DNA of 64,000 bases from the sequence record OM386662.1. The stretch is one strand, 5' to 3'. Shown here one piece after another: positions 5,636-64,000 of the stretch. Under the pieces are notes generated by a model. It saw only the letters and a program-made list of their open reading frames with translations, ran no database searches and was not told the DNA's origin. This DNA is from Escherichia phage vB_EcoM_ESCO47. Each line of letters starts with the position of its first letter. Within the stretch, counting starts at the first letter, position 1. A program made the position numbers and the translations under genes.

Positions 5636-8600
5636 CTAATTTAACCTGTGGTGGATTCACGGGGTCTCTAGGATTTCCTACATTATCGATTAGTCTTTTC
5701 TCGACTAAATCTCTGAACTGAGCAAACGTAGTACCAGACGCATCGAATAATGGGCTCATCAGTTTACGACGTTCTGATGGTAATTGACCTTGGAAAATGG
5801 AGTTATCATTTTCTGCGTTGTAGTCGGCAGGTAAAGGATATTCCTGTCCAGCCATAGGACCTGCATCATATAATGCTTCGCCTGTAACAGGGTCGTATTC
5901 AACATTACCTTGAGGGTCCAATCTTGCCACCCGGTCAGCGTATTGCGTAGGTAATCCAGAATCCCACTTATAGTTTTTATATTTATTAATTATTGTTTCA
6001 ACATGTTTAAGCGTTAATCCAACGTTAATAAACATTGTCAAAAGAGTTATTGCGATGAAGCCAAATCCAACCGGATGAACAAAACGTAATACGTCAGATT
6101 TCCATCTAGACGAAGGCAGATTTGATTTAATCTTCATTACATAATAAGATCTACCACGATTTATGTAGTCTATATTGTTTTGAGATAATTCTTTACCTTT
6201 GATTCCACGAACGATCATACCGTCAAAGCTCGGAAGTCTTTCCGCTTTAACTTCTTGTCCCTCAATAAGACGACCTAAAAGGTTATGAATCGTTACAGTC
6301 CACTGCAATTTACCCTTAGAGTAGCTTCTTTCTAAATAAGTAACATTACAACGTCCTGTGGCCGTGAATATTGTCTGTCCTACTAAATCTTCTGTAATAG
6401 TGTCAGACTCAACAACAATATCATACTCGGTCCCAGAAGACGATTCTATTTCGACTTCAACGTCTTCATTATACAAAACTTTAAACAAGAATTTATATGA
6501 CGCTTCAGTTCCTTTTGTCGAATAGAAATCATAACTTCTTGACTCAAAGAATCGAGCCACCAAATCACGCTTTTCAGCATTAAGGTAAATATTTCGCTTA
6601 TAAATCTCAGACCATAAGTATTCCCATGCGTGTTCTTCACGTGGATACTGGTTTTTAATAAGATTTAACAGGTTGTTATAGTGGGTCCCATATCCATCTG
6701 ATAAGTATTGGATATATGCTTCACAGAACGCTTCAAAGTTTGAATTATCTAGCAAATACGATTCTGGCATCATAGTCGTGATCAAAGGACGTAAATCCGG
6801 ATCTGCAATACCGTTCTCTTCAACAGGATTCCATGGAGTTTCTCTTTCCTGATTTTGTAAAAATGCCAGTAAGAACGTTTCGGTAGGTTTCCAAATAATG
6901 GAAACGTTATCTCTTACACGATAACTAAAGTCGTAATAGGAAATAATCTCACCTGATGATTTATAGAAAATCATACCGGATGCATATTTTTTAAAGCCGG
7001 TGAAATCAATATTAGGCATAACGATAGTACAATCGCCATCATTCCAATATTCGTGTACTTTTCTATCCGGAGAAGACGCTGGTAAGTTTTCAACGGCCTT
7101 TGTATATAACAACTCAGAATAAATGACAACAGCCCTATCTGAGTTATTAATCCAACAACGGGTGTCAGACTTTCTTGAATAGTTAAAGAAAGGTTCTGCA
7201 TAGTATTTCATAGGTTGCGGACTAAATGATTCCCAACCGGACTCTTCTGTTGAAATGAATGCCATCATATGGTAATGCTTATCAGCAAGCCATTCTCGCG
7301 GGTATTCATATTTTACTGCGCCAAGAAGACCGTACTTTATTTGGGTGACCGGGTCATTAACAATATCAGATTCCAAGAATTTAAAATTGCTTGACGAAAT
7401 AAAGAGTTCGGTGCCATCTGTGGACATACTGGTGAATGCAGGTTCAATACGACGACGTTCTTCTTCAGTATTACCAAAGACTCTAGTAAATGTACCTGTG
7501 GAGTGGTCTAGTACGTAAACTCCTTTATCAACAGAATCAAGAATAGGATTTGTTCTAGGGTCGTCATTCACATTAGCAACTTCGCCAATAATCAATGCAA
7601 ACACCTTACCACCGATAGAATCCATTTTATAACAAACAGCTTTAGGATTACCTGTAATATTAAATGTTTCCGGCTCGAACAAACGCTCAGAATATGTCGG
7701 AGACAATGGGTCTGAATCAATAGGAGCATTACTCGTTCTAATAAAGCGAACTTTATCTCGAGCAGCAACATATACATAATCGTCGTTACAAACAATAGCT
7801 TCTGCGACACGAGATACGTTTGCAGGTAACGATGCATAGTTACCGAAGATTTCTACGTCAAAACCTAAATTCAATTGGTCGCCAATTTTAGCAAATGTTA
7901 CGTCTTGAGAACTAAATCGAACGTCATCAGACGACCAACGAACATCCGTCGATTTACGTCCATAAAATACTTTATCATAGCCGAGAACATAAGTTGTGTA
8001 ATCAGATTGATAATAAACTGTGCGAGATAATGGATATCCCACGCGGTCATTAAACAATTTAACGGCTTTCCATGTTTGGCCTTTGTCATTAGATACTTTA
8101 ACCACAGGCTGATAACGTTCAAACAAGTAAAGAATACCTTCAGATTCCATCAAATAAACACGATTAATATCTCGACAAACATGTTTAATGGACCCTTGAA
8201 TTTCATGGTACTCATTTTCACCAACGATAAAGTTTCTAATGGATGAAATATCAGCATAAGCCGGACTGAATTGGAACGATTCGTTCATCAATGCGGCCAT
8301 GATAGTGTCGTTATTAAAATCGACATAGGCATGGTTATTATTTGTAAATTTTTCACGAATAAAACTATTTGCCAACTGCATTTCAATCATATTTTGAAAT
8401 GTATAAGCGTTGGTTTGAAACGTTTCAAAAATTTCTGTTTGAACCCAGTCAGATTGAGTAAATCCTTCTGCTGCTGTTGCTACACGCATAGTATAAGACG
8501 TTAACGGGTCCAAGCCACTTTCAAAGTAGTTACTATTTGCTGTGTAGCCTAAATTAATCCAACGATAACTAGACTGGGGAATATCCTCCCCAGCGGCTGT

Positions 8601-8726
8601 TTTAGTCTCAGCAATTTCTACGAAATAGTAGAAATTAGCACCAACGTCATCCCAGCGTATTTGAACTTGGTTTGCGGACAACTTGGATATTCTGAGACTT
8701 GTGACTGCTGGCGCTTTTACGGTCAT
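5628..8726 (-). CDS. 7: Baseplate wedge protein gp7
   Basis: 1032 aa, identical length to T4 gp7; synteny between 6 and 8. Confidence 0.85.
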   Translation of the reverse strand: MTVKAPAVTSLRISKLSANQVQIRWDDVGANFYYFVEIAETKTAAGEDIPQSSYRWINLGYTANSNYFESGLDPLTSYTMRVATAAEGFTQSDWVQTEIFETFQTNAYTFQNMIEMQLANSFIREKFTNNNHAYVDFNNDTIMAALMNESFQFSPAYADISSIRNFIVGENEYHEIQGSIKHVCRDINRVYLMESEGILYLFERYQPVVKVSNDKGQTWKAVKLFNDRVGYPLSRTVYYQSDYTTYVLGYDKVFYGRKSTDVRWSSDDVRFSSQDVTFAKIGDQLNLGFDVEIFGNYASLPANVSRVAEAIVCNDDYVYVAARDKVRFIRTSNAPIDSDPLSPTYSERLFEPETFNITGNPKAVCYKMDSIGGKVFALIIGEVANVNDDPRTNPILDSVDKGVYVLDHSTGTFTRVFGNTEEERRRIEPAFTSMSTDGTELFISSSNFKFLESDIVNDPVTQIKYGLLGAVKYEYPREWLADKHYHMMAFISTEESGWESFSPQPMKYYAEPFFNYSRKSDTRCWINNSDRAVVIYSELLYTKAVENLPASSPDRKVHEYWNDGDCTIVMPNIDFTGFKKYASGMIFYKSSGEIISYYDFSYRVRDNVSIIWKPTETFLLAFLQNQERETPWNPVEENGIADPDLRPLITTMMPESYLLDNSNFEAFCEAYIQYLSDGYGTHYNNLLNLIKNQYPREEHAWEYLWSEIYKRNIYLNAEKRDLVARFFESRSYDFYSTKGTEASYKFLFKVLYNEDVEVEIESSSGTEYDIVVESDTITEDLVGQTIFTATGRCNVTYLERSYSKGKLQWTVTIHNLLGRLIEGQEVKAERLPSFDGMIVRGIKGKELSQNNIDYINRGRSYYVMKIKSNLPSSRWKSDVLRFVHPVGFGFIAITLLTMFINVGLTLKHVETIINKYKNYKWDSGLPTQYADRVARLDPQGNVEYDPVTGEALYDAGPMAGQEYPLPADYNAENDNSIFQGQLPSERRKLMSPLFDASGTTFAQFRDLVEKRLIDNVGNPRDPVNPPQVKLDE

Positions 8727-10696
8727 TGTGAAATAGGCTCCAAATCTATAGTTAAGTATTGCGGACGTAAATCGTTTTCAAATACAATTAAGGAACCATC
8801 TTTTGTAAAAATAACATCATCTGTTGGATCCGAGTACAGTTCAATAGTTTGAACTTCAAAACGATCGGAAGAGAGGTCAATTTTATCAATATTCCAATAA
8901 ATCGAATCGGAAGGATAATTTATATCACCGATTGAATAGTATTTGTTTCGTCCATCAGTAACAGGAAGTTTATTAAAGTCATCACCTGTATATGGTTGTA
9001 TGTTTGCATTCTCGACAACATCACCATCGGCAAATGGTCCGATAATAACCTGACCAATACCGCGGTCATTACGATCTGAACCAACAATACGCACATCATA
9101 TTTGATGGTTTTGTTTGGATCCTCGACAGTAGGACGTAATGTATCAAATGAGAATGTATTTGATTCTAGTGAACGATCTTTAATCTGGTTATTATATTTA
9201 ATACCTGCTTCTGGGGTCTTATAAAAGTTCTGAACTTCACGAACTATTTGGATAGTGGCGGACGAACCAATTACAGAGATATCAGCATTATCAACATAAG
9301 TCAACATTTTAGATTTGGCAAATGAAGAGTTAAAGATTTCAACATCTTCGATATAATACCTATCAATTTTGTTAATAATTTGACCTTCGAGCCACTGTTC
9401 AGATTCTTGCAACTTATTTAATGCATACGTAACTTTGATATTCATTTTAATGAACAAATAATCAGGAGAAATAACAACAGGAGTAATCGTTCCTAAGTTA
9501 TAGTCATTTAAGTAGTTTTTAATATCGTCACGTTGGATAGAAGTCAGATATAAACCGGATTTAGGTTTAGCAGCGATAAATGCATAACCAGGTTTAGATG
9601 AATCTGTAAATGTTCTTACCGCTTGAATAATAGAACCAAAACGTTCCGAAACAAATGTATCATAGTCCGAAGCAGTAACACATCGTTGTTGTGTTTCGAG
9701 TTTGATAGTACCTAATTCACGGATACGTTCGATATCTTCTGGGTCACCACCACCGTCAGCACCTACGAAATCAGGATTTCCACTTGGGTTTTCATTAATA
9801 TCAATAACTGTGATATTAGACAGTGTATCAGCATAAGAAAATCCTACAGCACCATTGGCGTCAGCGCCGTTAGTCGAAATATATTCGATAACGATAGTAG
9901 AACCTTGCACAGGTTTTAAACCACCAATGTAGTTAGCAGATAATGCACCTTCAGATGTGTTAAGAGAGATCTCACCTTCACCAAAGTAAAATTCAGTATT
10001 GCCATCAATAGTTTCACGCATATAATAAATGGTGGAAGTTGAACCGGCATGAACCATTGATTTGCGCGTCCAGTCAGTCCATTCTGCTCCATCAACATAC
10101 AATTTAACCAGATTGCGATCAATATTTTTATCACGAATAATAATTGGTTTTAATTTATCAAATGTTAATTCAGTGCGAACAATACGTCCTTGAGCCAAAC
10201 GAAGACGTGGGAAATATTGGTTATTTCTATCTTTAACCACAATAACATCTTCTGTTGATACAAAGTTATATGGGTTAACAGATGTATCTTTAGCATAAGC
10301 CAAGAAACGAGTACCACGTGGAATAGTAATATAGTTTCTATTCAAAGCATCCGTACAGGTAAGCATAATTTCTGTTTGCGCCGCGGATTTAGACGCAGGC
10401 AAATATCCATTATCTTGCGCAGCTTGAACCACGGAACTACGTAAGTTTGCCGTACGTATAAAGCTTTCATATACTGCACTATTACTGAACTGTTGGATAT
10501 AAAGAGTATTGTATGCTAAAAGGTCGCACAATACGTTAAGGCGTGAACCTTCAAAATCATAGTCAAGAAATTCATTTTGACCATTAAGCCATTGGATGAT
10601 GTTTTGTTTAATTTCACTAAATGTACCCCCGATAAAAATCTCGGGAATAGCATTCGCTGTTCGAACTAATTGATAATTTACAGGGGTGGTTGCCAT
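8723..10696 (-). CDS. 6: Baseplate wedge protein gp6
   Basis: Start set at MATTPVNYQLVRTANAIPEIF (matches recalled T4 gp6 N-terminus) with AGGA RBS; ORF-track start 10753 is upstream in-frame. Confidence 0.85.
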   Translation of the reverse strand: MATTPVNYQLVRTANAIPEIFIGGTFSEIKQNIIQWLNGQNEFLDYDFEGSRLNVLCDLLAYNTLYIQQFSNSAVYESFIRTANLRSSVVQAAQDNGYLPASKSAAQTEIMLTCTDALNRNYITIPRGTRFLAYAKDTSVNPYNFVSTEDVIVVKDRNNQYFPRLRLAQGRIVRTELTFDKLKPIIIRDKNIDRNLVKLYVDGAEWTDWTRKSMVHAGSTSTIYYMRETIDGNTEFYFGEGEISLNTSEGALSANYIGGLKPVQGSTIVIEYISTNGADANGAVGFSYADTLSNITVIDINENPSGNPDFVGADGGGDPEDIERIRELGTIKLETQQRCVTASDYDTFVSERFGSIIQAVRTFTDSSKPGYAFIAAKPKSGLYLTSIQRDDIKNYLNDYNLGTITPVVISPDYLFIKMNIKVTYALNKLQESEQWLEGQIINKIDRYYIEDVEIFNSSFAKSKMLTYVDNADISVIGSSATIQIVREVQNFYKTPEAGIKYNNQIKDRSLESNTFSFDTLRPTVEDPNKTIKYDVRIVGSDRNDRGIGQVIIGPFADGDVVENANIQPYTGDDFNKLPVTDGRNKYYSIGDINYPSDSIYWNIDKIDLSSDRFEVQTIELYSDPTDDVIFTKDGSLIVFENDLRPQYLTIDLEPISQ

Positions 10697-10704
10697 TTTA
10701 ATTC

Positions 10705-10998
10705 CTATTTGATAAAGACTTTTGATGAGGCCTGAGAAACAGTATCCCCACATGAAATTGGGTCGGCCATTTGAACCGCCTTCTTACCGGTGACATAAAC
10801 TTTAGGTGTACGTGGTTGAGTAACACCACCATGGGTTTCGTATGGCTTTTTAATTTCTGTATGAGGTGTTATTTGATCTCCCGCAACAAGAACAGGAATA
10901 CCACCGGTAAAAACTTTTGATTGAGAAGAATTTATTACAGTAGGTGGCCATGAAGCATGGCCAGTCGTAATGCATTTATCGTAACTTAAGCCGGACAT
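10705..10998 (-). CDS. 5.4: Baseplate spike tip PAAR-repeat protein gp5.4
   Basis: 97 aa [21 protein letters not shown]...; matches recalled T4 gp5.4 in length and sequence. Confidence 0.8.
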
Positions 10999-52615: not shown

Positions 52616-52841
52616 TTATGAAATCCATCGTCATGAATTTAGTATTGATGACGGTTATATTGGTGTCGTTGAATGGACTGAGAATTACGAGGAGACAACT
52701 CCTCGTTTCTTTGGAACAATGTATGTTACCTGTGAGTACGCACCGGGTGTTGTTATGTATGCAGAACTAGATGAATATTTTGCTGATAGAGATGACATGT
52801 TAAAATATGTAGAGGACTTCATTCGAAGAGAATACATATGA
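52593..52841 (+). CDS. Hypothetical protein (T4 46.1 position)
   Basis: 82-aa ORF with AAGGA RBS. Confidence 0.45.
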   Translation: MRIMTKTDYEIHRHEFSIDDGYIGVVEWTENYEETTPRFFGTMYVTCEYAPGVVMYAELDEYFADRDDMLKYVEDFIRREYI

Positions 52842-54526
52842 AATCATTTAAATTAAATCGTGTTCGTTATAAAAATATAATGTCTGTTGGGCAAAATTTT
52901 ATCGATATCCAATTAGATAAAGTCCAAAAGACCTTAATCACAGGTAAAAATGGTGGTGGTAAATCTACGATGTTAGAAGCCATCACTTTTGGACTTTTCG
53001 GCAAACCATTTCGTGATGTTAAGAAAGGACAAATCATTAATAGCACGAACAAGAAAGAGCTCTTAGTTGAGCTTTGGATGGAATTCGATGATAAAAAATA
53101 CTTCATCAAACGAGGTCAAAAGCCCAATATTTTCGAAATCTCCGTTGACGGTGTTCGTCTCGATGAATCTGCCAGCAGTCGTGACTTCCAAGAAGAATTT
53201 GAACGTAGCATCGGAATGTCCTATGCGTCTTTTAAACAAATCGTCGTTCTTGGTACAGCAGGGTATACCCCTTTCATGGCTCTTAGCACCCCAGCTCGTA
53301 GAAAACTTGTCGAAGACCTTTTAGAAGTCGGCACACTCGCTGAAATGGATAAAATCAATAAGTCTCAAGTTCGCGAACTTAATTCCCGGGGGCAAGTTCT
53401 CGATGCCAAGAAAGATGGTGTTATCCAACAAATTAAGATTTATAATGAGAATATCGAACGTCAAAAGAAATTATCCGGTGATAATGTAGCTCGTCTACAG
53501 AATATGTATGATGACCTGGCTAAAGAAGCTCGGTCATTAAAAGCAGAAATCGAAGAAGCTAATGAGCGACTACTTAATATCGTTCTTGACGAAGACCCTA
53601 CTGAGGCATTCAACAAGATAGGACAAGAAGCATTATTGATTAAATCTAAAATTGACTCATATAACAAAGTTATTAAGATGTATCATGACGGCGGTACATG
53701 TCCTACTTGTGCATCACAGTTGCACCAGGGTGATCCTATTGTCTCTAAGATTACCGATAAGCTTCATGAATGTAATCACTCATTCGAGCAACTTACCTGT
53801 CACAGAGATAATCTGAGTGTCCTAGTGGACGAATATAGAGCTAATGTTAAGACTAAACAGGACCTTGCATCTGATATTCGTACCAAGAAACAAGCAATGA
53901 TTGCCACTATTGATAAAGCTAAGAAAGTTAAAGCTGCAATAGAGCAAGCCTCAGCAGAATTTATCGACCATGCCGATGAGATAGCTTTGCTTCAAAAAGA
54001 ACTTGATAAAATCATTAAAACAAAATCGGATATCGTTCTTGAAAAATACCATCGTGGTATTATCACAGATATGTTAAAAGATTCTGGTATTAAAGGTGCT
54101 ATCATTAAAAAATATGTGCCTCTGTTCAACAAGCAGATTAACCATTACCTTAAAATCATGGAAGCTGATTACGTGTTTTCTATTGATGAAGAATTCAATG
54201 AATCTATAAAATCCCGTGGTCGTGAAGATTTTAGTTATGCTTCATTTAGCCAAGGTGAAAAAGCACGTATTGATATCGCTTTATTGTTCACATGGCGAGA
54301 TATTGCTGAAAAGGTTTCTGGTGTTAGAATCAATACATTAATTATGGACGAAGTCATGGATTCCGCGACTGATTCTGAAGGTATTAAAGCTATTTCAACA
54401 ATTCTTAACTCTCTAACCGATGCAAACGTGTTTATAATTAGTCACAGAGACCATGACCCACAAGCTTATGGACAACATCTTCAAATGAGCAAAGTTGGAC
54501 GATTTACTGTAATGAAAGCCTCTTAA
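52838..54526 (+). CDS. 46: Recombination endonuclease subunit gp46 (Rad50/SbcC-like ATPase)
   Basis: Walker A GKNGGGKST, long coiled coil with CPTC zinc hook, signature SQGEKARIDIAL, Walker B LIMDEV; 562 aa. Confidence 0.95.
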   Translation: MKSFKLNRVRYKNIMSVGQNFIDIQLDKVQKTLITGKNGGGKSTMLEAITFGLFGKPFRDVKKGQIINSTNKKELLVELWMEFDDKKYFIKRGQKPNIFEISVDGVRLDESASSRDFQEEFERSIGMSYASFKQIVVLGTAGYTPFMALSTPARRKLVEDLLEVGTLAEMDKINKSQVRELNSRGQVLDAKKDGVIQQIKIYNENIERQKKLSGDNVARLQNMYDDLAKEARSLKAEIEEANERLLNIVLDEDPTEAFNKIGQEALLIKSKIDSYNKVIKMYHDGGTCPTCASQLHQGDPIVSKITDKLHECNHSFEQLTCHRDNLSVLVDEYRANVKTKQDLASDIRTKKQAMIATIDKAKKVKAAIEQASAEFIDHADEIALLQKELDKIIKTKSDIVLEKYHRGIITDMLKDSGIKGAIIKKYVPLFNKQINHYLKIMEADYVFSIDEEFNESIKSRGREDFSYASFSQGEKARIDIALLFTWRDIAEKVSGVRINTLIMDEVMDSATDSEGIKAISTILNSLTDANVFIISHRDHDPQAYGQHLQMSKVGRFTVMKAS

Positions 54527-55239
54527 TGAGGCTTATGTTTACAGTTATCAAAATGCCAACGATGCATATTAGCAGGGATCCCTATTTTATCGCAATGAGG
54601 ACATTTAATTTTCTTGTCCTCTTTTTTCTTTCTGTTAGGATTTGATTTACAGAATTTTATATGCGGCTTTAACGCCGATAACTTAGTAGTTAAGCCACAA
54701 AACGGGCAAGAATCTTCTTTCCAAATTTTCGTGGCCATGGTTTTAATTATTTTATCCTTTGTTTCTTGATCAAGTTTTACTATTTTAGGCGTAGGGCCTT
54801 GTTTACAGTTATCAAAATGCCAACGTCTCATGTTTCCTTCAGTGCCAGTTAAACCGCAGTGTGGACATGTAATCTTTGGTTTATTTTTTGCAGACTCGGA
54901 CATTTTCTTACGAGTTTCAGCAGTGAATTCTTTGTTCTTTTGAACTTCTTGATTCTTACGTCGAAGCCATCCAAATAATTTGTTTTTGCTTCTATCTGCT
55001 TTAGGAGATGAGATAGTCATCATACGAGCAGCATATATTAAAGAGGCATTATCTGGATGGATTTTTACTAGCAGTTGATGTGCCAAATAATGTTCTTCTG
55101 GTGTTAAATCTACTAAGTTTAAAGCATCATCACTTCCACCTAAACATTGTGGTATAATGTAATGACGTTCTGTATAACCATCTAAACTTCTTGATTTAGC
55201 ATTGGTGATAAGCTTTTCGTATATTGAGTTATAATTCAT
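54523..55239 (-). CDS. Free-standing HNH homing-endonuclease-like protein with triple zinc-finger repeats
   Basis: N-terminal HNH-like ERHYIIPQCLGGSDDALNLVDLTPEEHYLAH; three CPHCG...WHFDNCK repeats; opposite strand to neighbours; AAGGA RBS. Confidence 0.7.
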   Translation of the reverse strand: MNYNSIYEKLITNAKSRSLDGYTERHYIIPQCLGGSDDALNLVDLTPEEHYLAHQLLVKIHPDNASLIYAARMMTISSPKADRSKNKLFGWLRRKNQEVQKNKEFTAETRKKMSESAKNKPKITCPHCGLTGTEGNMRRWHFDNCKQGPTPKIVKLDQETKDKIIKTMATKIWKEDSCPFCGLTTKLSALKPHIKFCKSNPNRKKKEDKKIKCPHCDKIGIPANMHRWHFDNCKHKPH

Positions 55240-55292: not shown

Positions 55293-55318
55293 TTGCTTTA
55301 AACACGGAGATTTATAAT
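55293..55318 (+). promoter_or_regulatory. MotA-dependent middle promoter candidate (45.2/rpbA/45)
   Basis: TTGCTTTA, 12 bp, -10 TATAAT. Confidence 0.4.
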
Positions 55319-55508
55319 GGCTGAATTTTCAACCGGACAACAACTTCTAGCTGTTCCAGAAATTAAAAAATATGTTCTGACTAATACCTTTTCAGGTGAA
55401 GAACATATTGTTACTGAAGAAATGCTCAAAAATGCTTTTAAAAATGAGTATTATAAAATAATGTCTAATCGTTCAAATGCTTTTATTGTTAGCGACTACT
55501 ATGACTAA
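55317..55508 (+). CDS. Conserved hypothetical protein (T4 45.2 position)
   Basis: 63-aa ORF; synteny. Confidence 0.5.
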   Translation: MAEFSTGQQLLAVPEIKKYVLTNTFSGEEHIVTEEMLKNAFKNEYYKIMSNRSNAFIVSDYYD

Positions 55509-58722: not shown

Positions 58723-61434
58723 ATGCAAGAATTTTATTTGACAGTAGAACAGATTGGTGACTCAATTTTCGAACGTTATATCGATTCTAACGGTCGTGAA
58801 CGTGTTCGTGAAGTAGAGTATAAGCCATCATTGTTTGCACATTGTCCCGAAAGTCAGGCTACAAAATATTTTGATATCTATGGTAAACCATGTACTCGTA
58901 AGTTATTCGCTAATATGCGTGACGCATCTCAGTGGATTAAACGCATGGAAGATATCGGTCTTGAAGCATTAGGTATGGACGATTTTAAATTGTCTTATAT
59001 CAGTGATACGTATCCGGTTGATATCAAATACGACCATACTAAAATTCGTGTAGCGAACTTTGACATCGAAGTAACATCTCCTGACGGGTTCCCTGAGCCG
59101 TCACAAGCAAAACATCCTATTGATGCTATCACTCATTATGACTCAATTGATGACAGGTTTTATGTATTTGACCTTTTGAATTCTCCATATGGTAATGTAG
59201 AAGAATGGTCTATCGAAATTGCGGCTAAGCTTCAAGAACAAGGCGGTGATGAAGTTCCATCCGAAATTATCGACAAAATTGTTTATATGCCGTTTGATAA
59301 TGAAAAAGAATTATTGATGGAATATCTCAATTTCTGGCAACAGAAAACTCCTGTCATTTTAACCGGATGGAACGTTGAGACATTTGATATTCCATATGTG
59401 TATAACAGAATCAAGAATATTTTTGGTGAATCCACAGCAAAACGGTTGTCACCACATCGCAAGACTCGTGTTAAAGTTATTGAAAACATGTATGGTTCAC
59501 GAGAAATCATTACATTGTTTGGTATCTCTGTTCTTGATTATATCGACCTTTACAAAAAGTTCTCTTTCACGAACCAACCGTCATATTCTCTGGACTATGT
59601 TTCAGAATTTGAATTGAATGTTGGTAAACTGAAATACGACGGTCCTATTTCTAAACTTCGCGAAAGTAATCATCAACGATATATAAGCTATAACATCATC
59701 GACGTATATCGTGTATTGCAAATTGATGCTAAACGCCAGTTCATTAACTTGAGCTTGGACATGGGTTATTATGCTAAAATTCAGATTCAATCTGTGTTCA
59801 GTCCAATTAAAACTTGGGACGCTATTATTTTTAATAGCCTTAAAGAACAAAACAAGGTGATTCCACAAGGTCGTTCGCATCCAGTTCAACCTTACCCGGG
59901 TGCTTTTGTTAAGGAACCTATTCCAAATCGATACAAATATGTGATGAGCTTCGACCTCACATCTCTGTATCCAAGCATCATTCGCCAAGTGAATATTAGC
60001 CCAGAAACAATAGCAGGAACGTTTAAAGTAGCTCCATTACATGATTATATTAACGCTGTTGCTGAACGTCCTTCTGATGTGTACAGTTGTTCTCCTAACG
60101 GCATGATGTATTATAAAGACCGTGACGGTGTTGTTCCAACTGAAATCACTAAAGTCTTTAATCAACGTAAAGAACATAAAGGTTATATGCTTGCGGCTCA
60201 ACGTAATGGTGAAATAATTAAAGAGGCCTTACATAATCCTAATCTTTCTGTTGATGAACCATTAGATGTTGATTATCGTTTTGACTTCACTGACGAGATT
60301 AAAGAAAAGATTAAAAAGTTGTCTGCTAAATCTCTTAATGAAATGTTGTTTAGAGCTCAACGTACTGAAGTTGCAGGTATGACTGCACAAATTAACCGTA
60401 AATTGCTCATCAACTCGCTTTATGGTGCACTTGGAAACGTTTGGTTCCGTTATTACGATTTGCGTAATGCAACTGCAATCACAACATTCGGTCAAATGGC
60501 TTTACAATGGATTGAACGTAAAGTTAATGAATATCTTAACGAAGTTTGTGGTACACAAGGCGAAGCTTTCGTTCTATATGGTGATACAGACTCCATTTAC
60601 GTATCTGTAGATAAAATTATTGATAAGGTTGGTGAATCTAAATTCCGCGATACTAACCATTGGGTAGACTTCTTAGATAAGTTCGCTCGTGAACGTATGG
60701 AACCTGCTATTGATAGAGGTTTCCGTGAAATGTGCGAATACATGAATAATAAGCAACATTTGATGTTCATGGACCGAGAAGCTATCGCTGGGCCTCCGCT
60801 TGGTTCTAAAGGTATTGGTGGATTCTGGACTGGTAAGAAACGTTATGCATTAAACGTGTGGGATATGGAAGGAACCAGATACGCTGAACCTAAGCTTAAA
60901 ATCATGGGTCTCGAAACACAGAAATCTTCGACTCCTAAAGCAGTACAGAAAGCTCTTAAGGAATGTATTCGTCGTATGCTTCAGGAAGGCGAAGAATCAT
61001 TACAAGAATATTTTAAAGAGTTTGAAAAAGAGTTCCGTCAGCTGGATTATATTAGCATCTCATCAGTGTCATCGGCAAATAACATTGCTAAATATGATGT
61101 CGGTGGATTCCCAGGTCCTAAATGTCCATTCCATATTCGTGGAATTCTGACATATAACCGAGCTATCAAAGGTAATATTGATGCTCCACAAGTTGTAGAA
61201 GGTGAAAAGGTATACGTTCTGCCTTTACGTGATGGAAACCCGTTCGGTGATAAATGTATCGCATGGCCATCTGGTACAGAAATCACTGATTTGATTAAAG
61301 ACGACGTGCTTCGTTGGATGGACTACACTGTTCTCCTTGAGAAGACATTTATTAACCCACTTGAAGGATTCACGTCAGCAGCGAAACTCGATTATGAGAA
61401 GAAAGCATCTCTGTTCGATATGTTCGATTTTTGA
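58723..61434 (+). CDS. 43: DNA polymerase gp43 (family B)
   Basis: 903 aa; exo motifs FDIE, YNIIDV; pol motifs DLTSLYPS, YGDTDS; sequence near-identical to recalled RB69 gp43. Confidence 0.97.
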   Translation: MQEFYLTVEQIGDSIFERYIDSNGRERVREVEYKPSLFAHCPESQATKYFDIYGKPCTRKLFANMRDASQWIKRMEDIGLEALGMDDFKLSYISDTYPVDIKYDHTKIRVANFDIEVTSPDGFPEPSQAKHPIDAITHYDSIDDRFYVFDLLNSPYGNVEEWSIEIAAKLQEQGGDEVPSEIIDKIVYMPFDNEKELLMEYLNFWQQKTPVILTGWNVETFDIPYVYNRIKNIFGESTAKRLSPHRKTRVKVIENMYGSREIITLFGISVLDYIDLYKKFSFTNQPSYSLDYVSEFELNVGKLKYDGPISKLRESNHQRYISYNIIDVYRVLQIDAKRQFINLSLDMGYYAKIQIQSVFSPIKTWDAIIFNSLKEQNKVIPQGRSHPVQPYPGAFVKEPIPNRYKYVMSFDLTSLYPSIIRQVNISPETIAGTFKVAPLHDYINAVAERPSDVYSCSPNGMMYYKDRDGVVPTEITKVFNQRKEHKGYMLAAQRNGEIIKEALHNPNLSVDEPLDVDYRFDFTDEIKEKIKKLSAKSLNEMLFRAQRTEVAGMTAQINRKLLINSLYGALGNVWFRYYDLRNATAITTFGQMALQWIERKVNEYLNEVCGTQGEAFVLYGDTDSIYVSVDKIIDKVGESKFRDTNHWVDFLDKFARERMEPAIDRGFREMCEYMNNKQHLMFMDREAIAGPPLGSKGIGGFWTGKKRYALNVWDMEGTRYAEPKLKIMGLETQKSSTPKAVQKALKECIRRMLQEGEESLQEYFKEFEKEFRQLDYISISSVSSANNIAKYDVGGFPGPKCPFHIRGILTYNRAIKGNIDAPQVVEGEKVYVLPLRDGNPFGDKCIAWPSGTEITDLIKDDVLRWMDYTVLLEKTFINPLEGFTSAAKLDYEKKASLFDMFDF

Positions 61435-61475
61435 TATAATGCCATGGACGGCAAACTAACCTAAATGAGAGAAAT

Positions 61476-62108
61476 ATGAAAACCACTCCTATTACTATCG
61501 CAATTGACGCAATCGTAAAGCAAGCTTCATCTCTGGCTACTATGGCTAAAGTAATTAGTCAAAATTCAGCTCGATACAATGCCATTCTTGAAACCTTGCG
61601 ACGTCCTGGTCTGAGTAATTATGAAAGTCGTGTAATTATTACCGGTGTCGGTAAAAATGCTAATATCGCAACTAAAGCTTCTGAAACATTTGCTTCACTC
61701 GGTATCCCGAGTATGTACTTGAACACTGGGCATTATTCTCACGGTGATGCAGGATTCATTGCGCCTAATGATGTGTTGATTCATATTAGTCGTTCTGGTA
61801 AAACTGAAGAAATGATTGGCGTGGCTAAGCATCTTAAAATGATTCGTCCGAACGTCAAACAGATTCTGTTGCATTGTAACCCGGACATTCCACAAGAAAA
61901 TGAAGCCCTTTTTGATTACTCTTTCTGTACAGGCATCGCAGTAGAGGTTGATGAGAATTCTCTGGCTCCGACTATGTCAACTACATTGTTGTTAGCGCTT
62001 ATCGATACGTTTGCTATCAACCTTTCATCTGAACGTGGATTTACCTCTAATGACTTCCTTAAGTTCCACCCTGGTGGTGCACTAGGTGCCATGTTACGAG
62101 GCGAATAA
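61476..62108 (+). CDS. SIS-domain sugar-phosphate isomerase (arabinose-5-phosphate isomerase KdsD/GutQ-like, no CBS domains)
   Basis: ITGVGKNANIATKASETFASLGIPS...SHGDAGFIAPNDVLIHISRSGKTEE...FLKFHPGGALG resembles KdsD SIS-domain motifs; ends where KdsD CBS domains would begin. Confidence 0.65.
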   Translation: MKTTPITIAIDAIVKQASSLATMAKVISQNSARYNAILETLRRPGLSNYESRVIITGVGKNANIATKASETFASLGIPSMYLNTGHYSHGDAGFIAPNDVLIHISRSGKTEEMIGVAKHLKMIRPNVKQILLHCNPDIPQENEALFDYSFCTGIAVEVDENSLAPTMSTTLLLALIDTFAINLSSERGFTSNDFLKFHPGGALGAMLRGE

Positions 62109-62251
62109 TGAAAGCAATAGCAATAGGACTTTTACTATTGATGCTTGTTATGACTATCTACTGGAGCTTAACTGCTCCAGTAATGGTTCCGACTCTTATA
62201 ATCGGATGGATTATGATTGGACTACAAGCAAAGTATGAATGCTTTAACTAG
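62108..62251 (+). CDS. Small hydrophobic peptide (47 aa)
   Basis: TAATG-coupled; two TM-like segments; below ORF-track cutoff. Confidence 0.3.
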   Translation: MKAIAIGLLLLMLVMTIYWSLTAPVMVPTLIIGWIMIGLQAKYECFN

Positions 62252-62292
62252 AATAGTGTACAATACTCCTACTTACCAATGAGGACCACAAC

Positions 62293-63978
62293 ATGAAAAA
62301 AGCTGTTATTCTTGGTGCTGGACTGGCAACTCGTTTGTATCCAATAACGCATCATATTCCTAAGGTGCTTGTTAACTATAAACAAGACACTATTCTGAGC
62401 AATTTGTATACAATTTATTCTGATCTTGGCGCAGACGAAATTATTGTAGTAGTTCATTCAAAATTTGCTGAAACTGTTCGAGCTTATTGTGAGCAAGAAG
62501 GGTTCAATGTGACTATTCGTACAGTTGATGAAGCGTATGGATCTGCTTATGCTCTTGCTAAATTACACAAAGATTTAGACGGCCATAATGTAATTGTTAA
62601 CTGGTGTGATATTATTCCTGATTTTGGTTCATGGTCATGGAATGTTAACGCAATCTATGTTAAGGGCGACGAATGTCGATATAATTTCGACGGTGAAAAT
62701 ATCACTAACGTAGGTTCAACAGGTGGTAATGTTGTAGGAATTTATCAGTTCAAAGACTGGGAATTCTATATGGGTTCTACCGATGAGGAAATTCATGAAT
62801 ACTGCAAAGGACGTGATTTCGTAGAATTCCTTTACGGCAGCGCATTCAATAAATCAGAGCTTATGAATCTAATTGATTTAGGTGATATGCCTAAACTTGA
62901 AAAAGCTCATGAAGTTCGTGAACTTAATCGTAGTTTTAATGCAGTTGAAATTGGTGAAGAAACTGTAACTAAATTCGCATTAACCGAACAGGGTCGAGCT
63001 CTTCAGAAAGATGAGATTTCATGGTATCTTAAAGTGAAATCAGATTCAGTTCCTCAGTTAGTTTCTGTTAATGAAAATAACTTTGAAATGGAACGCATTA
63101 AAGGTAGGCCGGCATTTGAATATATTAAATCCAAATCAAGTCTTGCTCGTCCACAAATTGTTGATGCAATTTTAGATGCACTGAAATTCAGCACAGACAC
63201 TTATTTTGTAAGTCCTGAAACTGTTCGTCGTGATTTCACTAAAGAATTCTATACTAAAGTTATTGATCGTTGTGAAAGCATTCAACCATTGATTGATTCA
63301 TTTGGTAAAATCACACATGTGAACTACACCAAGATTGGACGTCTGAAGCCAATGCTGAAACAAGCTTTAGAACACCTTATTCGTTATCATAACCGTTCTC
63401 AGGGACAGTACTCTGTTATTCATGGTGACCCGAACTTCAGTAATACTATGATTACTGATAACGGCGAAGTCAAGTTTATCGACCCTCGTGGATATTTTGG
63501 CGAAACCAAGATTTACGGCCCGAAATTGTATGATGAAGCTAAAGTGCTTTATGCTGTTTCAGGTTATGATGAATTCAATGCTAATCCGACCTGGGGGCAG
63601 TTTACTATTGATGAAACAACTTGTAATGTGTCTATTAACATCAATCCATTAGTTTACAAATATGGAAAGATGAGTTCGTTTAACGAGTATCATCATTTGG
63701 CAGTGGCAATTATCTGGATTGCATTAGGTGGTTATTTCAAGAATAATCCACTTAAAGCGGTAGCCGCATATTATAAAGGTATGGAACTTCTGACTAAGCA
63801 ATTACGTAACATGGGCCGTGTACTTCAGGACGGCTCTATTAGTTATGACGTAGCAGAACCTGTAACGGCTACACTGATTACAAAAAATCCTGGTAAATGG
63901 GTACTAACTGATAAAGAAACTGGTGTTTCCTATCGTCCAATCGGTGGCGATATCACTCATCAATGGGAACGAATCTAA
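62293..63978 (+). CDS. Bifunctional sugar-1-phosphate nucleotidyltransferase / sugar kinase (APH-fold) fusion
   Basis: N-terminus MKKAVILGAGLATRLYPITHHIPKVLV = NTP-transferase signature; C-terminus HGDPNFSNTMI...IDPRGYFG = aminoglycoside/choline-kinase-type catalytic loop. Confidence 0.65.
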   Translation: MKKAVILGAGLATRLYPITHHIPKVLVNYKQDTILSNLYTIYSDLGADEIIVVVHSKFAETVRAYCEQEGFNVTIRTVDEAYGSAYALAKLHKDLDGHNVIVNWCDIIPDFGSWSWNVNAIYVKGDECRYNFDGENITNVGSTGGNVVGIYQFKDWEFYMGSTDEEIHEYCKGRDFVEFLYGSAFNKSELMNLIDLGDMPKLEKAHEVRELNRSFNAVEIGEETVTKFALTEQGRALQKDEISWYLKVKSDSVPQLVSVNENNFEMERIKGRPAFEYIKSKSSLARPQIVDAILDALKFSTDTYFVSPETVRRDFTKEFYTKVIDRCESIQPLIDSFGKITHVNYTKIGRLKPMLKQALEHLIRYHNRSQGQYSVIHGDPNFSNTMITDNGEVKFIDPRGYFGETKIYGPKLYDEAKVLYAVSGYDEFNANPTWGQFTIDETTCNVSININPLVYKYGKMSSFNEYHHLAVAIIWIALGGYFKNNPLKAVAAYYKGMELLTKQLRNMGRVLQDGSISYDVAEPVTATLITKNPGKWVLTDKETGVSYRPIGGDITHQWERI

Positions 63979-64000
63979 TGCACCGTGTAGAAAACATGCT

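What the first reader, a model, noticed from the sequence alone, without database searches (positions are those of the whole stretch)
61476..63978. Sugar-nucleotide biosynthesis cassette next to DNA polymerase: candidate donor pathway for DNA hypermodification
Directly downstream of gene 43, where T4 carries imm/42/beta-gt, this phage has a SIS-domain-only isomerase with KdsD/GutQ-like motifs (SHGDAGF, ISRSGKTEE, FHPGGALG) followed by a fused sugar-1-phosphate nucleotidyltransferase plus APH-fold kinase. Together these could convert a pentose phosphate (arabinose-5-phosphate from ribulose-5-phosphate) into an activated NDP-sugar. The window lacks alpha-glucosyltransferase between genes 47 and 55. 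RB69-type phages are reported to carry arabinosyl-hydroxymethylcytosine; this cassette is a plausible but unproven donor pathway, and a phosphatase and the glycosyltransferase would be expected beyond the window end (a new ORF starts at 63978).
Basis: partly seen in the sequence, partly recalled or inferred. Interest (0 to 1): 0.85.

Follow-up and report, generated by a model that had tools for sequence, protein, structure and literature searches.

The report
Known phage UDP-arabinose pathway genes
These are real genes that let an RB69-like phage make an activated arabinose sugar to decorate the cytosines of its DNA, but the same cassette was already described for RB69 in 2018 and the pathway was worked out in 2025-2026, so this is a correct rediscovery and not a new finding.

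Summary
Downstream of gene 43, the window encodes a 210-aa SIS-only isomerase (61476-62108), a 47-aa hydrophobic ORF (62108-62251), a 561-aa nucleotidyltransferase + kinase fusion (62293-63978), and the first codons of a HAD phosphatase (from 63978).

The window is a Mosigvirus. Its proteins are 98.6% identical to RB69 gp55 and 99.1-99.5% identical to RB69 gp53/gp52.

- **Isomerase:** closest solved relatives are arabinose-5-phosphate isomerases, and all catalytic residues are kept.
- **N-terminal domain:** MurU/RmlA/LicC-like.
- **C-terminal domain:** APH/choline-kinase-like.

The predicted phosphatase and glycosyltransferase lie just past the window end in 97%-identical relatives.

The cassette is already published:
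- Thomas 2018 proposed these genes for UDP-arabinose synthesis.
- Lee et al. 2026 assign the steps ribulose-5-P → arabinose-5-P → arabinose-1,5-bisphosphate → arabinose-1-P → UDP-arabinofuranose. They cite biochemistry on phage HY126 AfhE/AfhF (He 2026) and Mahler 2025.

One correction: the modified base is 5-hydroxycytosine, not hydroxymethylcytosine.

Novelty: already known. Interest is low. A side observation is that distant homologues fuse all four activities into one protein on giant-virus-like contigs.

The parts
61476..62108 (+). Single-domain (SIS-only, no CBS pair) D-arabinose-5-phosphate isomerase, orthologue of RB69 gp55 (ORF055c)
   Evidence: ORF. Pfam SIS 1e-10. PHROG 5670 'arabinose 5-phosphate isomerase' 7.7e-116. 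Solved-structure matches: 3etn 2.7e-25, 5uqi 5.4e-23, KdsD 2xhz 3.5e-19. 98.6% identical to RB69 gp55. K60, H89, E112, E157 and H198 align with KdsD K59, H88, E111, E152 and H193 (KdsD residue roles are from memory of Gourlay et al. 2010).
62108..62251 (+). 47-aa hydrophobic small ORF (RB69 ORF054c). It sits inside the cassette but is probably not part of the pathway.
   Evidence: PHROG 3610, unknown function, 1.2e-26. tblastn finds it in 573 phage records, including Tequatrovirus phages that lack the arabinose genes. In T4 the match lies between imm and gene 42. Its start overlaps the SIS stop codon (TAATG).
62293..62904 (+). N-terminal domain (residues 1-204) of the 561-aa bifunctional protein: sugar-1-phosphate nucleotidyltransferase, proposed arabinofuranose-1-P uridylyltransferase
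   Evidence: Pfam NTP_transferase 8.6e-10. PDB sequence hit LicC 1jyk 2.1e-05. AlphaFold2 model pLDDT 92.5. Foldseek top hits MurU 4y7u/4y7t/4y7v, RmlA, LicC, HddC. G10, R14, K24 and D106 are invariant in 36 homologues down to 28% identity.
62905..63978 (+). C-terminal domain (residues 205-561) of the same protein: APH/choline-kinase-fold sugar kinase, proposed arabinose-5-P 1-kinase; coordinates include the stop codon
   Evidence: Invariant K227, E241, H377-G378-D379, N384 and D397 (Brenner HxDxxxxN motif plus metal-binding Asp). AlphaFold2 model of the domain, pLDDT 86.8. Foldseek top hits APH(2'')-IIa 3ham 2.3e-07, ethanolamine/choline kinases, LicA. Sequence profiles alone are weak. The whole protein is 99.1-99.5% identical to RB69 gp53+gp52.
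63978..64000 (+). First 7 codons (MHRVENM) of the HAD-family phosphatase gene (RB69 gp51 orthologue), cut by the window end
   Evidence: The ATG overlaps the stop of the previous gene. Translation. In phage 308Ecol101PP the 128-aa gene at the same position begins MHRVKNMLNLCFDVDDCIT, with the DxDxT HAD motif. NCBIfam TIGR01689 'capsule biosynthesis phosphatase' 3.7e-13, below its cut-off.

Best explanation
The region is the front half of the Mosigvirus (RB69-type) gene cluster that makes UDP-D-arabinofuranose, the sugar donor for arabinosylating 5-hydroxycytosine in phage DNA.

Proposed mechanism:
1. The 210-aa SIS enzyme isomerises host ribulose-5-phosphate to arabinose-5-phosphate.
2. The kinase domain of the 561-aa protein phosphorylates C1 to give arabinose-1,5-bisphosphate.
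3. The HAD phosphatase, whose gene starts at 63978, removes the 5-phosphate.
4. The nucleotidyltransferase domain of the 561-aa protein couples arabinose-1-phosphate to UTP.
5. Glycosyltransferases encoded outside the window then add one or two arabinoses to 5-hydroxycytosine. That base is made as a mononucleotide by a thymidylate-synthase homologue further down the cluster.

Shown here: gene existence, near-identity to RB69, domain folds, conserved catalytic residues, and the synteny of the missing downstream genes in relatives.

Taken from the literature: the chemistry of the base, the order of the steps, and UDP as the carrier.

Inferred: that this particular phage does the same.
For: Identity with the published system:
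- SIS protein is 98.6% identical to RB69 gp55; the fusion protein is 99.1-99.5% identical to RB69 gp53/gp52; the polymerase is 98% identical.
- Best DNA matches are all Mosigvirus, at 97%.

Domain assignments reproduced independently. My top fold hits (MurU 4y7t; APH(2'')-IIa 3ham; 3etn/2xhz/5uqi) are the same PDB entries reported for RB69 in Table 1 of PMC13326640. Both active sites of the fusion protein are invariant across 36 homologues.

Synteny: the downstream HAD phosphatase, ThyA homologue, glycosyltransferase and nucleotide kinase are present in relatives and in RB69.

Gene-fusion support: distant homologues carry HAD-SIS-nucleotidyltransferase-kinase in one polypeptide of about 920 aa. 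The SIS part is 33% identical to the phage isomerase, E=7e-29.

Literature:
- Thomas 2018 proposed these genes.
- Lee 2026 gives the pathway and reports that UDP-Araf is the donor accepted in vitro by DLP3 glycosyltransferases acting on RB69 DNA.
- Mosigvirus NP DNA carries mono- and di-arabinosyl-dC.
- Inactivating the Thanatos homologue TH1_060 (P0031, 54% identical to the window protein by BLASTP) abolishes phage propagation.
Against: - No enzyme from this phage or from RB69 itself has been assayed for these three steps. The biochemistry (AfhE/AfhF) is on phage HY126, and I know it only second-hand through PMC13326640, because He 2026 and Mahler 2025 are not in the held library.
- I could not compare the window protein directly with the HY126 AfhE sequence.
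- The kinase domain does not reach any Pfam gathering score, and its profile matches to PDB sequences are weak. That assignment rests on fold and motifs.
- Table 1 of PMC13326640 still lists an alternative order (dephosphorylate first, then phosphorylate free arabinose).
- The Thanatos paper could not detect any activity for TH1_060 with xylose-1-P.
- The rest of the cluster is outside the window, so its presence in this phage is inferred from relatives.
Confidence: 0.88

Rival explanations
1. Same enzymes, different order. The phosphatase first makes free arabinose from arabinose-5-P, the kinase domain then phosphorylates free arabinose at C1, and the nucleotidyltransferase activates it.
Against: The text of the same paper adopts the bisphosphate route, based on HY126 AfhE/AfhF biochemistry. 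The route is also the exact logic of the heptose pathway GmhA-HldE-GmhB. The HAD protein's published fold hit is a heptose-1,7-bisphosphate 7-phosphatase.
Confidence: 0.07
2. The cassette makes the donor for arabinosyl-hydroxymethylcytosine, as the first reader wrote and as proposed in 2018.
For: Thomas 2018 reported ara-hmC in RB69.
Against: NMR/MS work shows the arabinose is ether-linked directly to C5 through 5-hydroxycytosine (PMC13326640 abstract). PMC13390438 states that the hmC assignment was erroneous. The cluster's ThyA homologue makes 5-hydroxy-dCMP.
Confidence: 0.02
3. The genes serve a purpose other than DNA modification, such as boosting Kdo/LPS or capsule precursor supply, or making another NDP-sugar for a host-surface or virion glycan.
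For: The isomerase family normally feeds Kdo synthesis. The HAD protein's best NCBIfam match is a capsule-biosynthesis phosphatase. Giant-virus-like contigs carry the fused pathway with no obvious link to DNA modification.
Against: In phages the genes are clustered with the 5-hydroxy-dCMP synthase and DNA arabinosyltransferase. Phages with the cluster have arabinosylated DNA. The T4 glucosyltransferase genes are missing at both T4 positions.
Confidence: 0.03

Closest known systems
RB69 gp55 (ORF055c), gp52:53 (ORF53_52c) and gp51, within the UDP-arabinose / arabinosyl-5-hydroxycytosine cluster between gene 43 and uvsX (Thomas 2018; Lee et al. 2026)
   Same: Same genes, same order and same position. 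Identity is 98.6% (isomerase) and 99.1-99.5% (fusion protein). Same top fold hits.
   Different: Essentially nothing differs. The window has the 561-aa gene intact, whereas the RB69 reference record splits it by a known sequencing error. The small ORF is called as 47 aa here and 36 aa in the RB69 record.
Phage HY126 AfhE (bifunctional arabinose-5-P kinase / UDP-arabinose pyrophosphorylase) and AfhF (Mg-dependent phosphatase), He et al. 2026, as cited in PMC13326640
   Same: Same two-domain architecture and the same proposed reactions. PMC13326640 calls RB69 gp52:53 and gp51 the analogous proteins.
   Different: I could not compare the sequences or read the primary paper, so orthology to AfhE is second-hand.
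Nucleotide-activated heptose pathway: GmhA (SIS isomerase), HldE or HddA (anomeric kinase), GmhB (HAD phosphatase), HldE or HddC (nucleotidyltransferase)
   Same: Identical logic: ketose phosphate to aldose phosphate, C1 phosphorylation to a bisphosphate, removal of the distal phosphate, then NMP transfer. HldE is likewise a kinase/nucleotidyltransferase fusion (my knowledge). HddC appears among the fold hits with the highest identity, 23%.
   Different: A five-carbon substrate instead of seven. The kinase here has the APH/protein-kinase-like fold, not the ribokinase fold of HldE or the GHMP fold of HddA (my knowledge). The domain order is also different. The product goes onto DNA rather than LPS or capsule.
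AmgK-MurU and LicA-LicC pairs (APH/choline-kinase-fold kinase plus small nucleotidyltransferase)
   Same: The two domains of the 561-aa protein have MurU and LicC (N-terminal) and LicA/APH (C-terminal) as best structural matches, so it looks like a fusion of such a pair.
   Different: Those are separate proteins acting on MurNAc or choline. Identity is only 13-19%.
KdsD/GutQ/KpsF arabinose-5-phosphate isomerases, and the single-domain isomerases of E. coli CFT073 c3406 (5uqi) and Bacteroides fragilis (3etn)
   Same: SIS fold and all catalytic residues. Best NCBIfam hits are KpsF/GutQ and KdsD.
   Different: It lacks the tandem CBS domains and scores below the family cut-offs (112.9 versus 203.7 bits). 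It resembles the short, CBS-less isomerases.
T4 glucosyl-hydroxymethylcytosine system (gene 42, alpha-gt, beta-gt)
   Same: Same genomic slot between gene 43 and uvsX. Same purpose of sugar-coating cytosine to evade restriction.
   Different: T4 uses host UDP-glucose and needs no donor pathway. Here the phage brings its own donor synthesis, a hydroxylase instead of a hydroxymethylase, and no alpha-gt or beta-gt.

Membership tests
Arabinose-5-phosphate isomerase (SIS superfamily; KdsD/GutQ/KpsF and single-domain relatives) | SIS domain above the Pfam gathering score | tested here: met
   PF01380, 41.9 bits versus cut-off 25, residues 51-181.
Arabinose-5-phosphate isomerase (SIS superfamily; KdsD/GutQ/KpsF and single-domain relatives) | Catalytic and substrate-binding residues equivalent to E. 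coli KdsD K59, H88, E111, E152 and H193 | tested here: met
   The alignment to 2xhz (the KdsD K59A SIS domain) puts window K60, H89, E112 and E157 on those positions. FHPGGALG aligns with YHPGGALG of 5uqi, giving the H193 equivalent. The roles of these residues are from my knowledge of the KdsD literature.
Arabinose-5-phosphate isomerase (SIS superfamily; KdsD/GutQ/KpsF and single-domain relatives) | Tandem CBS domains and full-length match to the KpsF/GutQ or KdsD models | tested here: not met
   The protein is only 210 aa. It matches positions 2-153 of the 268-position TIGR00393 model and scores 112.9 bits, below the cut-off of 203.7. KdsD model: 107.8 versus 505. It belongs with the short CBS-less isomerases (3etn, 5uqi), not the KdsD/GutQ equivalogs.
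Arabinose-5-phosphate isomerase (SIS superfamily; KdsD/GutQ/KpsF and single-domain relatives) | Ribulose-5-P to arabinose-5-P activity | not testable with these tools
   Requires an enzyme assay.
Sugar-1-phosphate nucleotidyltransferase (PF00483) | Family match above cut-off, the N-terminal G-x-G-x-x-R...K signature, and the fold | tested here: met
   39 bits versus cut-off 21.2. G10, R14 and K24 are invariant in 36 homologues. Foldseek probability 1.00 to MurU, RmlA and LicC, with target TM-scores of 0.67-0.72 for MurU and LicC and 0.54-0.58 for RmlA.
Sugar-1-phosphate nucleotidyltransferase (PF00483) | Nucleotide specificity (UTP) | not testable with these tools
   UDP is inferred from the literature: UDP-Araf is used by DLP3 glycosyltransferases, and HY126 AfhE is described as a UDP-arabinose pyrophosphorylase.
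APH / choline-kinase-like small-molecule kinases | Sequence-profile match above cut-off | tested here: not met
   APH scores 14.4 bits versus cut-off 23.2, and all other kinase families are also below their cut-offs. The best E-value in a profile search against PDB sequences is 6e-4.
APH / choline-kinase-like small-molecule kinases | Catalytic-loop motif H-x-D-x4-N, downstream metal-binding Asp, N-lobe Lys/Glu pair, and a bilobal kinase fold | tested here: met
   H377, D379, N384, D397, K227 and E241 are invariant. The domain model has pLDDT 86.8. Foldseek probability 1.00 to 3ham, 3sgc, 2qg7 and 4r77. TM-scores are only 0.40-0.48.
AfhE-type bifunctional arabinose-5-P kinase / UDP-arabinose pyrophosphorylase | Two-domain architecture of about 560 aa and orthology to RB69 gp52:53 | tested here: met
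   561 aa. 99.5% identity over residues 1-218 and 99.1% over residues 219-561 to the two RB69 fragments. PHROG 4098 full-length match, 4e-295.
AfhE-type bifunctional arabinose-5-P kinase / UDP-arabinose pyrophosphorylase | Direct sequence identity to the characterised HY126 AfhE, and its two activities | not tested
   The HY126 sequence and the primary paper were not available. The equivalence rests on the statement in PMC13326640.
Arabinosyl-5-hydroxycytosine DNA modification cluster | Co-located HAD phosphatase, ThyA-homologue 5-hydroxy-dCMP synthase, arabinosyltransferase and nucleotide kinase | tested here: inconclusive
   Only the first 7 codons of the HAD gene fall inside the window. All four genes are present in this order in 308Ecol101PP and RB69.
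T4-type glucosyl-hydroxymethylcytosine system | alpha-gt between genes 55 and 47; gene 42 and beta-gt downstream of gene 43 | tested here: not met
   Only small DUF ORFs lie between genes 55 and 47. The arabinose genes occupy the gene 42/beta-gt slot.

The most novel reading that the evidence does not exclude
Nothing inside the window looks new. The most novel reading my evidence leaves open concerns relatives. The same pathway module exists as a single HAD-SIS-nucleotidyltransferase-kinase polypeptide of about 900-950 aa on contigs that look like giant viruses of eukaryotes. Their neighbours include a MutS with an HNH domain, RNA polymerase Rpb2 and Rpb10, a 1551-aa family B DNA polymerase, ubiquitin hydrolase and Ulp1-like protease genes. 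This would mean giant viruses also make an NDP-arabinofuranose (or a related pentose) by this route, for a virion glycan or conceivably for DNA. I found no paper describing this fusion, but I ran only one literature search on it.
Probability: 0.25. Interest if true: 0.5.

Novelty: already known. Interest (0 to 1): 0.12.

Why it matters
Sugar-coated cytosines let T4-like phages resist restriction enzymes and CRISPR nucleases. They also determine which modification-dependent defences (GmrSD/BrxU, DNA glycosylases) can attack the phage. Recognising this cassette in a genome predicts arabinosylated DNA, which matters when choosing or engineering therapeutic Mosigvirus phages and for sequencing or cloning their DNA.

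This window adds another member of a well-populated group (about 150 near-identical records) and no new knowledge.

Tried and rejected
- **Primary papers:** I tried to read He et al. 2026 (Nat Chem Biol) and Mahler et al. 2025 (Cell Host Microbe). Neither is held, so their results are cited only through PMC13326640. A full-text search for HY126 found no other relevant source.
- **Kinase domain by sequence:** Pfam was sub-threshold. phmmer against the PDB found only N-terminal-domain matches. A 14-sequence profile of the C-terminal domain gave only weak protein-kinase/RIO/APH hits. Fold comparison of a separate domain model was needed.
- **Whole-protein fold search:** the list was filled with N-terminal-domain hits and was uninformative for the kinase half.
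- **Promoters and terminators:** the scan of 61200-64000 found no more sites than shuffled sequence (9 versus 9.5; 2 versus 1.9), so I make no expression claims.
- **The 47-aa ORF as a pathway component:** considered as a possible membrane anchor or regulator, and rejected because it is conserved in glucosylating Tequatrovirus phages at the imm-42 junction.
- **The HAD domain of the four-domain fusions:** I tested whether it is homologous to the phage phosphatase. No significant similarity was found, so that part of the fusion argument is by analogy only.
Full report
**What is there.** The ORF list and raw sequence show these features, all on the + strand:
- Gene 43 DNA polymerase, 903 aa, ending at 61434.
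- A 210-aa ORF at 61476-62108.
- A 47-aa hydrophobic ORF at 62108-62251, whose ATG overlaps the preceding stop (TAATG).
- A 561-aa ORF at 62293-63978.
- A further ATG at 63978, again overlapping the stop, which opens an ORF cut by the window end (MHRVENM).

These are real genes, not chance ORFs. Compared with phage 308Ecol101PP, 28 of 32 substitutions in the long gene and 34 of 42 in the short one are at third codon positions. The long protein has homologues in 373 deposited phage genomes.

**Where the window comes from.** The 2.6-kb region matches 171 phage records, nearly all Mosigvirus (RB69-like T-even phages), at about 97% nucleotide identity. At the protein level:
- The 210-aa protein is 98.6% identical to RB69 gp55.
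- The 561-aa protein is 99.5% and 99.1% identical to RB69 gp53 and gp52. These are two halves of one gene split in the reference record by a known sequencing error.
- The polymerase is 98% identical to RB69 gp43 (PMC6024577 section 3.4).

**Domain assignments, tested independently.**

*Isomerase (210 aa):*
- It passes the Pfam SIS threshold.
- It matches PHROG 5670 'arabinose 5-phosphate isomerase' at 7.7e-116.
- Its closest solved relatives are the Bacteroides fragilis isomerase 3etn (2.7e-25), E. coli c3406 5uqi (5.4e-23) and the KdsD catalytic domain 2xhz (3.5e-19).
- In those alignments window K60, H89, E112, E157 and H198 fall on KdsD K59, H88, E111, E152 and H193.
- It lacks the CBS pair of KdsD/GutQ/KpsF and scores below those NCBIfam cut-offs. 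It is therefore a short, CBS-less isomerase like 3etn and 5uqi.

*Fusion protein (561 aa):*
- It passes the Pfam NTP_transferase threshold at residues 3-99. Kinase families are only sub-threshold around residues 350-410.
- In an alignment of 36 homologues down to 28% identity, both active sites are invariant: G10, R14, K24 and D106 in the transferase; K227, E241, H377-G378-D379, N384 and D397 in the kinase.
- The AlphaFold2 model is confident (pLDDT 92.5, pTM 0.88). Its best PDB matches are MurU, RmlA, LicC and HddC.
- A separate model of residues 205-561 (pLDDT 86.8) matches aminoglycoside phosphotransferase APH(2'')-IIa 3ham best, followed by ethanolamine/choline kinases including LicA.
- These are the same PDB entries that Lee et al. 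report for RB69 (Table 1 of PMC13326640).

**Surroundings.**
- In 308Ecol101PP and RB69 the gene that starts at the overlapping ATG is a 128-aa HAD phosphatase with the DxDxT motif.
- It is followed by a U32-like protein, a small ORF, a thymidylate-synthase homologue, a 300-aa protein (split as gp46/47 in the RB69 record), a nucleotide kinase and uvsX.
- T4 has imm, gene 42 and beta-gt in this slot.
- Between gene 55 and gene 47 the window has only small DUF ORFs and no alpha-glucosyltransferase.
- The 47-aa ORF inside the cassette has homologues in 573 phage records, including T4, where the match lies between imm and gene 42. I read it as a conserved backbone ORF around which the arabinose genes sit, not as a pathway component.

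**How it most likely works.** Host ribulose-5-phosphate is isomerised to arabinose-5-phosphate by the SIS enzyme. The kinase domain adds a phosphate at C1. The HAD phosphatase removes the 5-phosphate. The nucleotidyltransferase domain makes UDP-arabinofuranose. Glycosyltransferases encoded elsewhere then put one or two arabinoses on 5-hydroxycytosine in DNA.

- The order of steps and the UDP carrier come from PMC13326640 section 27, which relays the in-vitro characterisation of phage HY126 AfhE and AfhF by He et al. 2026. They also rest on the finding that DLP3 glycosyltransferases extend RB69 DNA with UDP-Araf.
- The logic is that of the nucleotide-heptose pathway (GmhA, HldE or HddA, GmhB, HddC). 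The fusion protein looks like a joined LicA-LicC or AmgK-MurU pair.
- Additional support comes from gene fusion. Distant homologues (31-35% identity) carry HAD, SIS, nucleotidyltransferase and kinase in one polypeptide. Their SIS part is 33% identical to the phage isomerase. Their HAD part is not detectably related to the phage phosphatase.
- Genetic support comes from Shewanella phage Thanatos, whose homologue TH1_060 (54% identical to the window protein by BLASTP) is required for propagation.

**Comparison with what is known.** This is the published system.
- Thomas et al. [quoted passage not shown]
- GenBank records of the BASEL phages already annotate the long gene as a 'putative enzyme involved in UDP-arabinose biosynthesis' (MZ501056.1).
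- Lee et al. 2026 assign each step.

- The base is 5-hydroxycytosine with an ether-linked arabinose, not hydroxymethylcytosine.
- The pathway is no longer unproven for the family, although neither RB69's enzymes nor this phage's enzymes for these three steps have been assayed.

**Limits.**
- I could not read He 2026 or Mahler 2025, nor compare directly with the HY126 sequences.
- The kinase assignment rests on fold and motifs, not on a family threshold.
- The rest of the cluster lies outside the window.
- The promoter and terminator scan gave nothing above background.

**Verdict.** Novelty: already known. Interest is low. The only thing I saw that might be new is outside the window: the four-domain fused version of the pathway sits on contigs with giant-virus hallmark genes.

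Noticed in passing
L005-L007 (gene at 8001-10781), L009 (5545-8283), L012 (8001-10841); proteins P0085, P0088, P0089, P0091, P0092, P0109: Distant homologues of the 561-aa protein are four-domain fusions of about 890-955 aa, ordered HAD-SIS-nucleotidyltransferase-kinase. Their contigs carry giant-virus-like neighbours: MutS with HNH, RNA polymerase Rpb2 and Rpb10, a 1551-aa family B DNA polymerase, an SNF2 helicase, Ulp1 and UCH proteases, and asparagine synthase. One member comes from a eukaryotic transcriptome set. In L005 the fusion gene region has lower GC (0.38-0.42) than its flanks (0.50-0.57).
   Followed up: partly
window 54526-55239, minus strand: A 238-aa ORF on the opposite strand, between gene 46 (52838-54526) and gene 45.2 (55317-55508), matches homing endonucleases (PHROG 655, 2.7e-64). 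In phage 308Ecol101PP the gap between these genes is only 55 nt, so this is an insertion of about 740 nt of a mobile endonuclease gene.
   Followed up: partly
window 62108-62251: The 47-aa hydrophobic ORF between the isomerase and the fusion gene is conserved in 573 phage records. These include T4-type phages without arabinose genes, where the match lies between imm and gene 42. Its function is unknown. It is wrongly labelled 'putative phosphosugar isomerase' in one record.
   Followed up: yes
window 61432-61440: An exact extended -10 sequence, TGATATAAT, overlaps the gene 43 stop codon, 36 nt upstream of the isomerase start. There is no good -35 element, and the promoter scan did not list it. 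It may be a phage early-type promoter, but this is untested.
   Followed up: no
window 62106-62110 and 63976-63980: Both gene junctions are TAATG overlaps: isomerase to small ORF, and fusion gene to phosphatase. This suggests translational coupling within the cassette.
   Followed up: no
window 63820-63975 (residues ~510-561 of the 561-aa protein): The T4-like phage versions carry a conserved C-terminal tail of about 50 residues (…TKNPGKWVLTDKETGVSYRP…W…). It is beta-rich, has lower model confidence (pLDDT 73-86), and is missing from the shorter homologues of about 520 aa. Its role is unknown.
   Followed up: no
L004 (RB69 NC_004928.1) 5709-6095 and many relatives listed: RefSeq labels the HAD phosphatase gene (RB69p051) 'phosphoheptose isomerase', and other records call the fusion protein 'GlmU'. 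These look like annotation errors that propagate through Mosigvirus records.
   Followed up: partly
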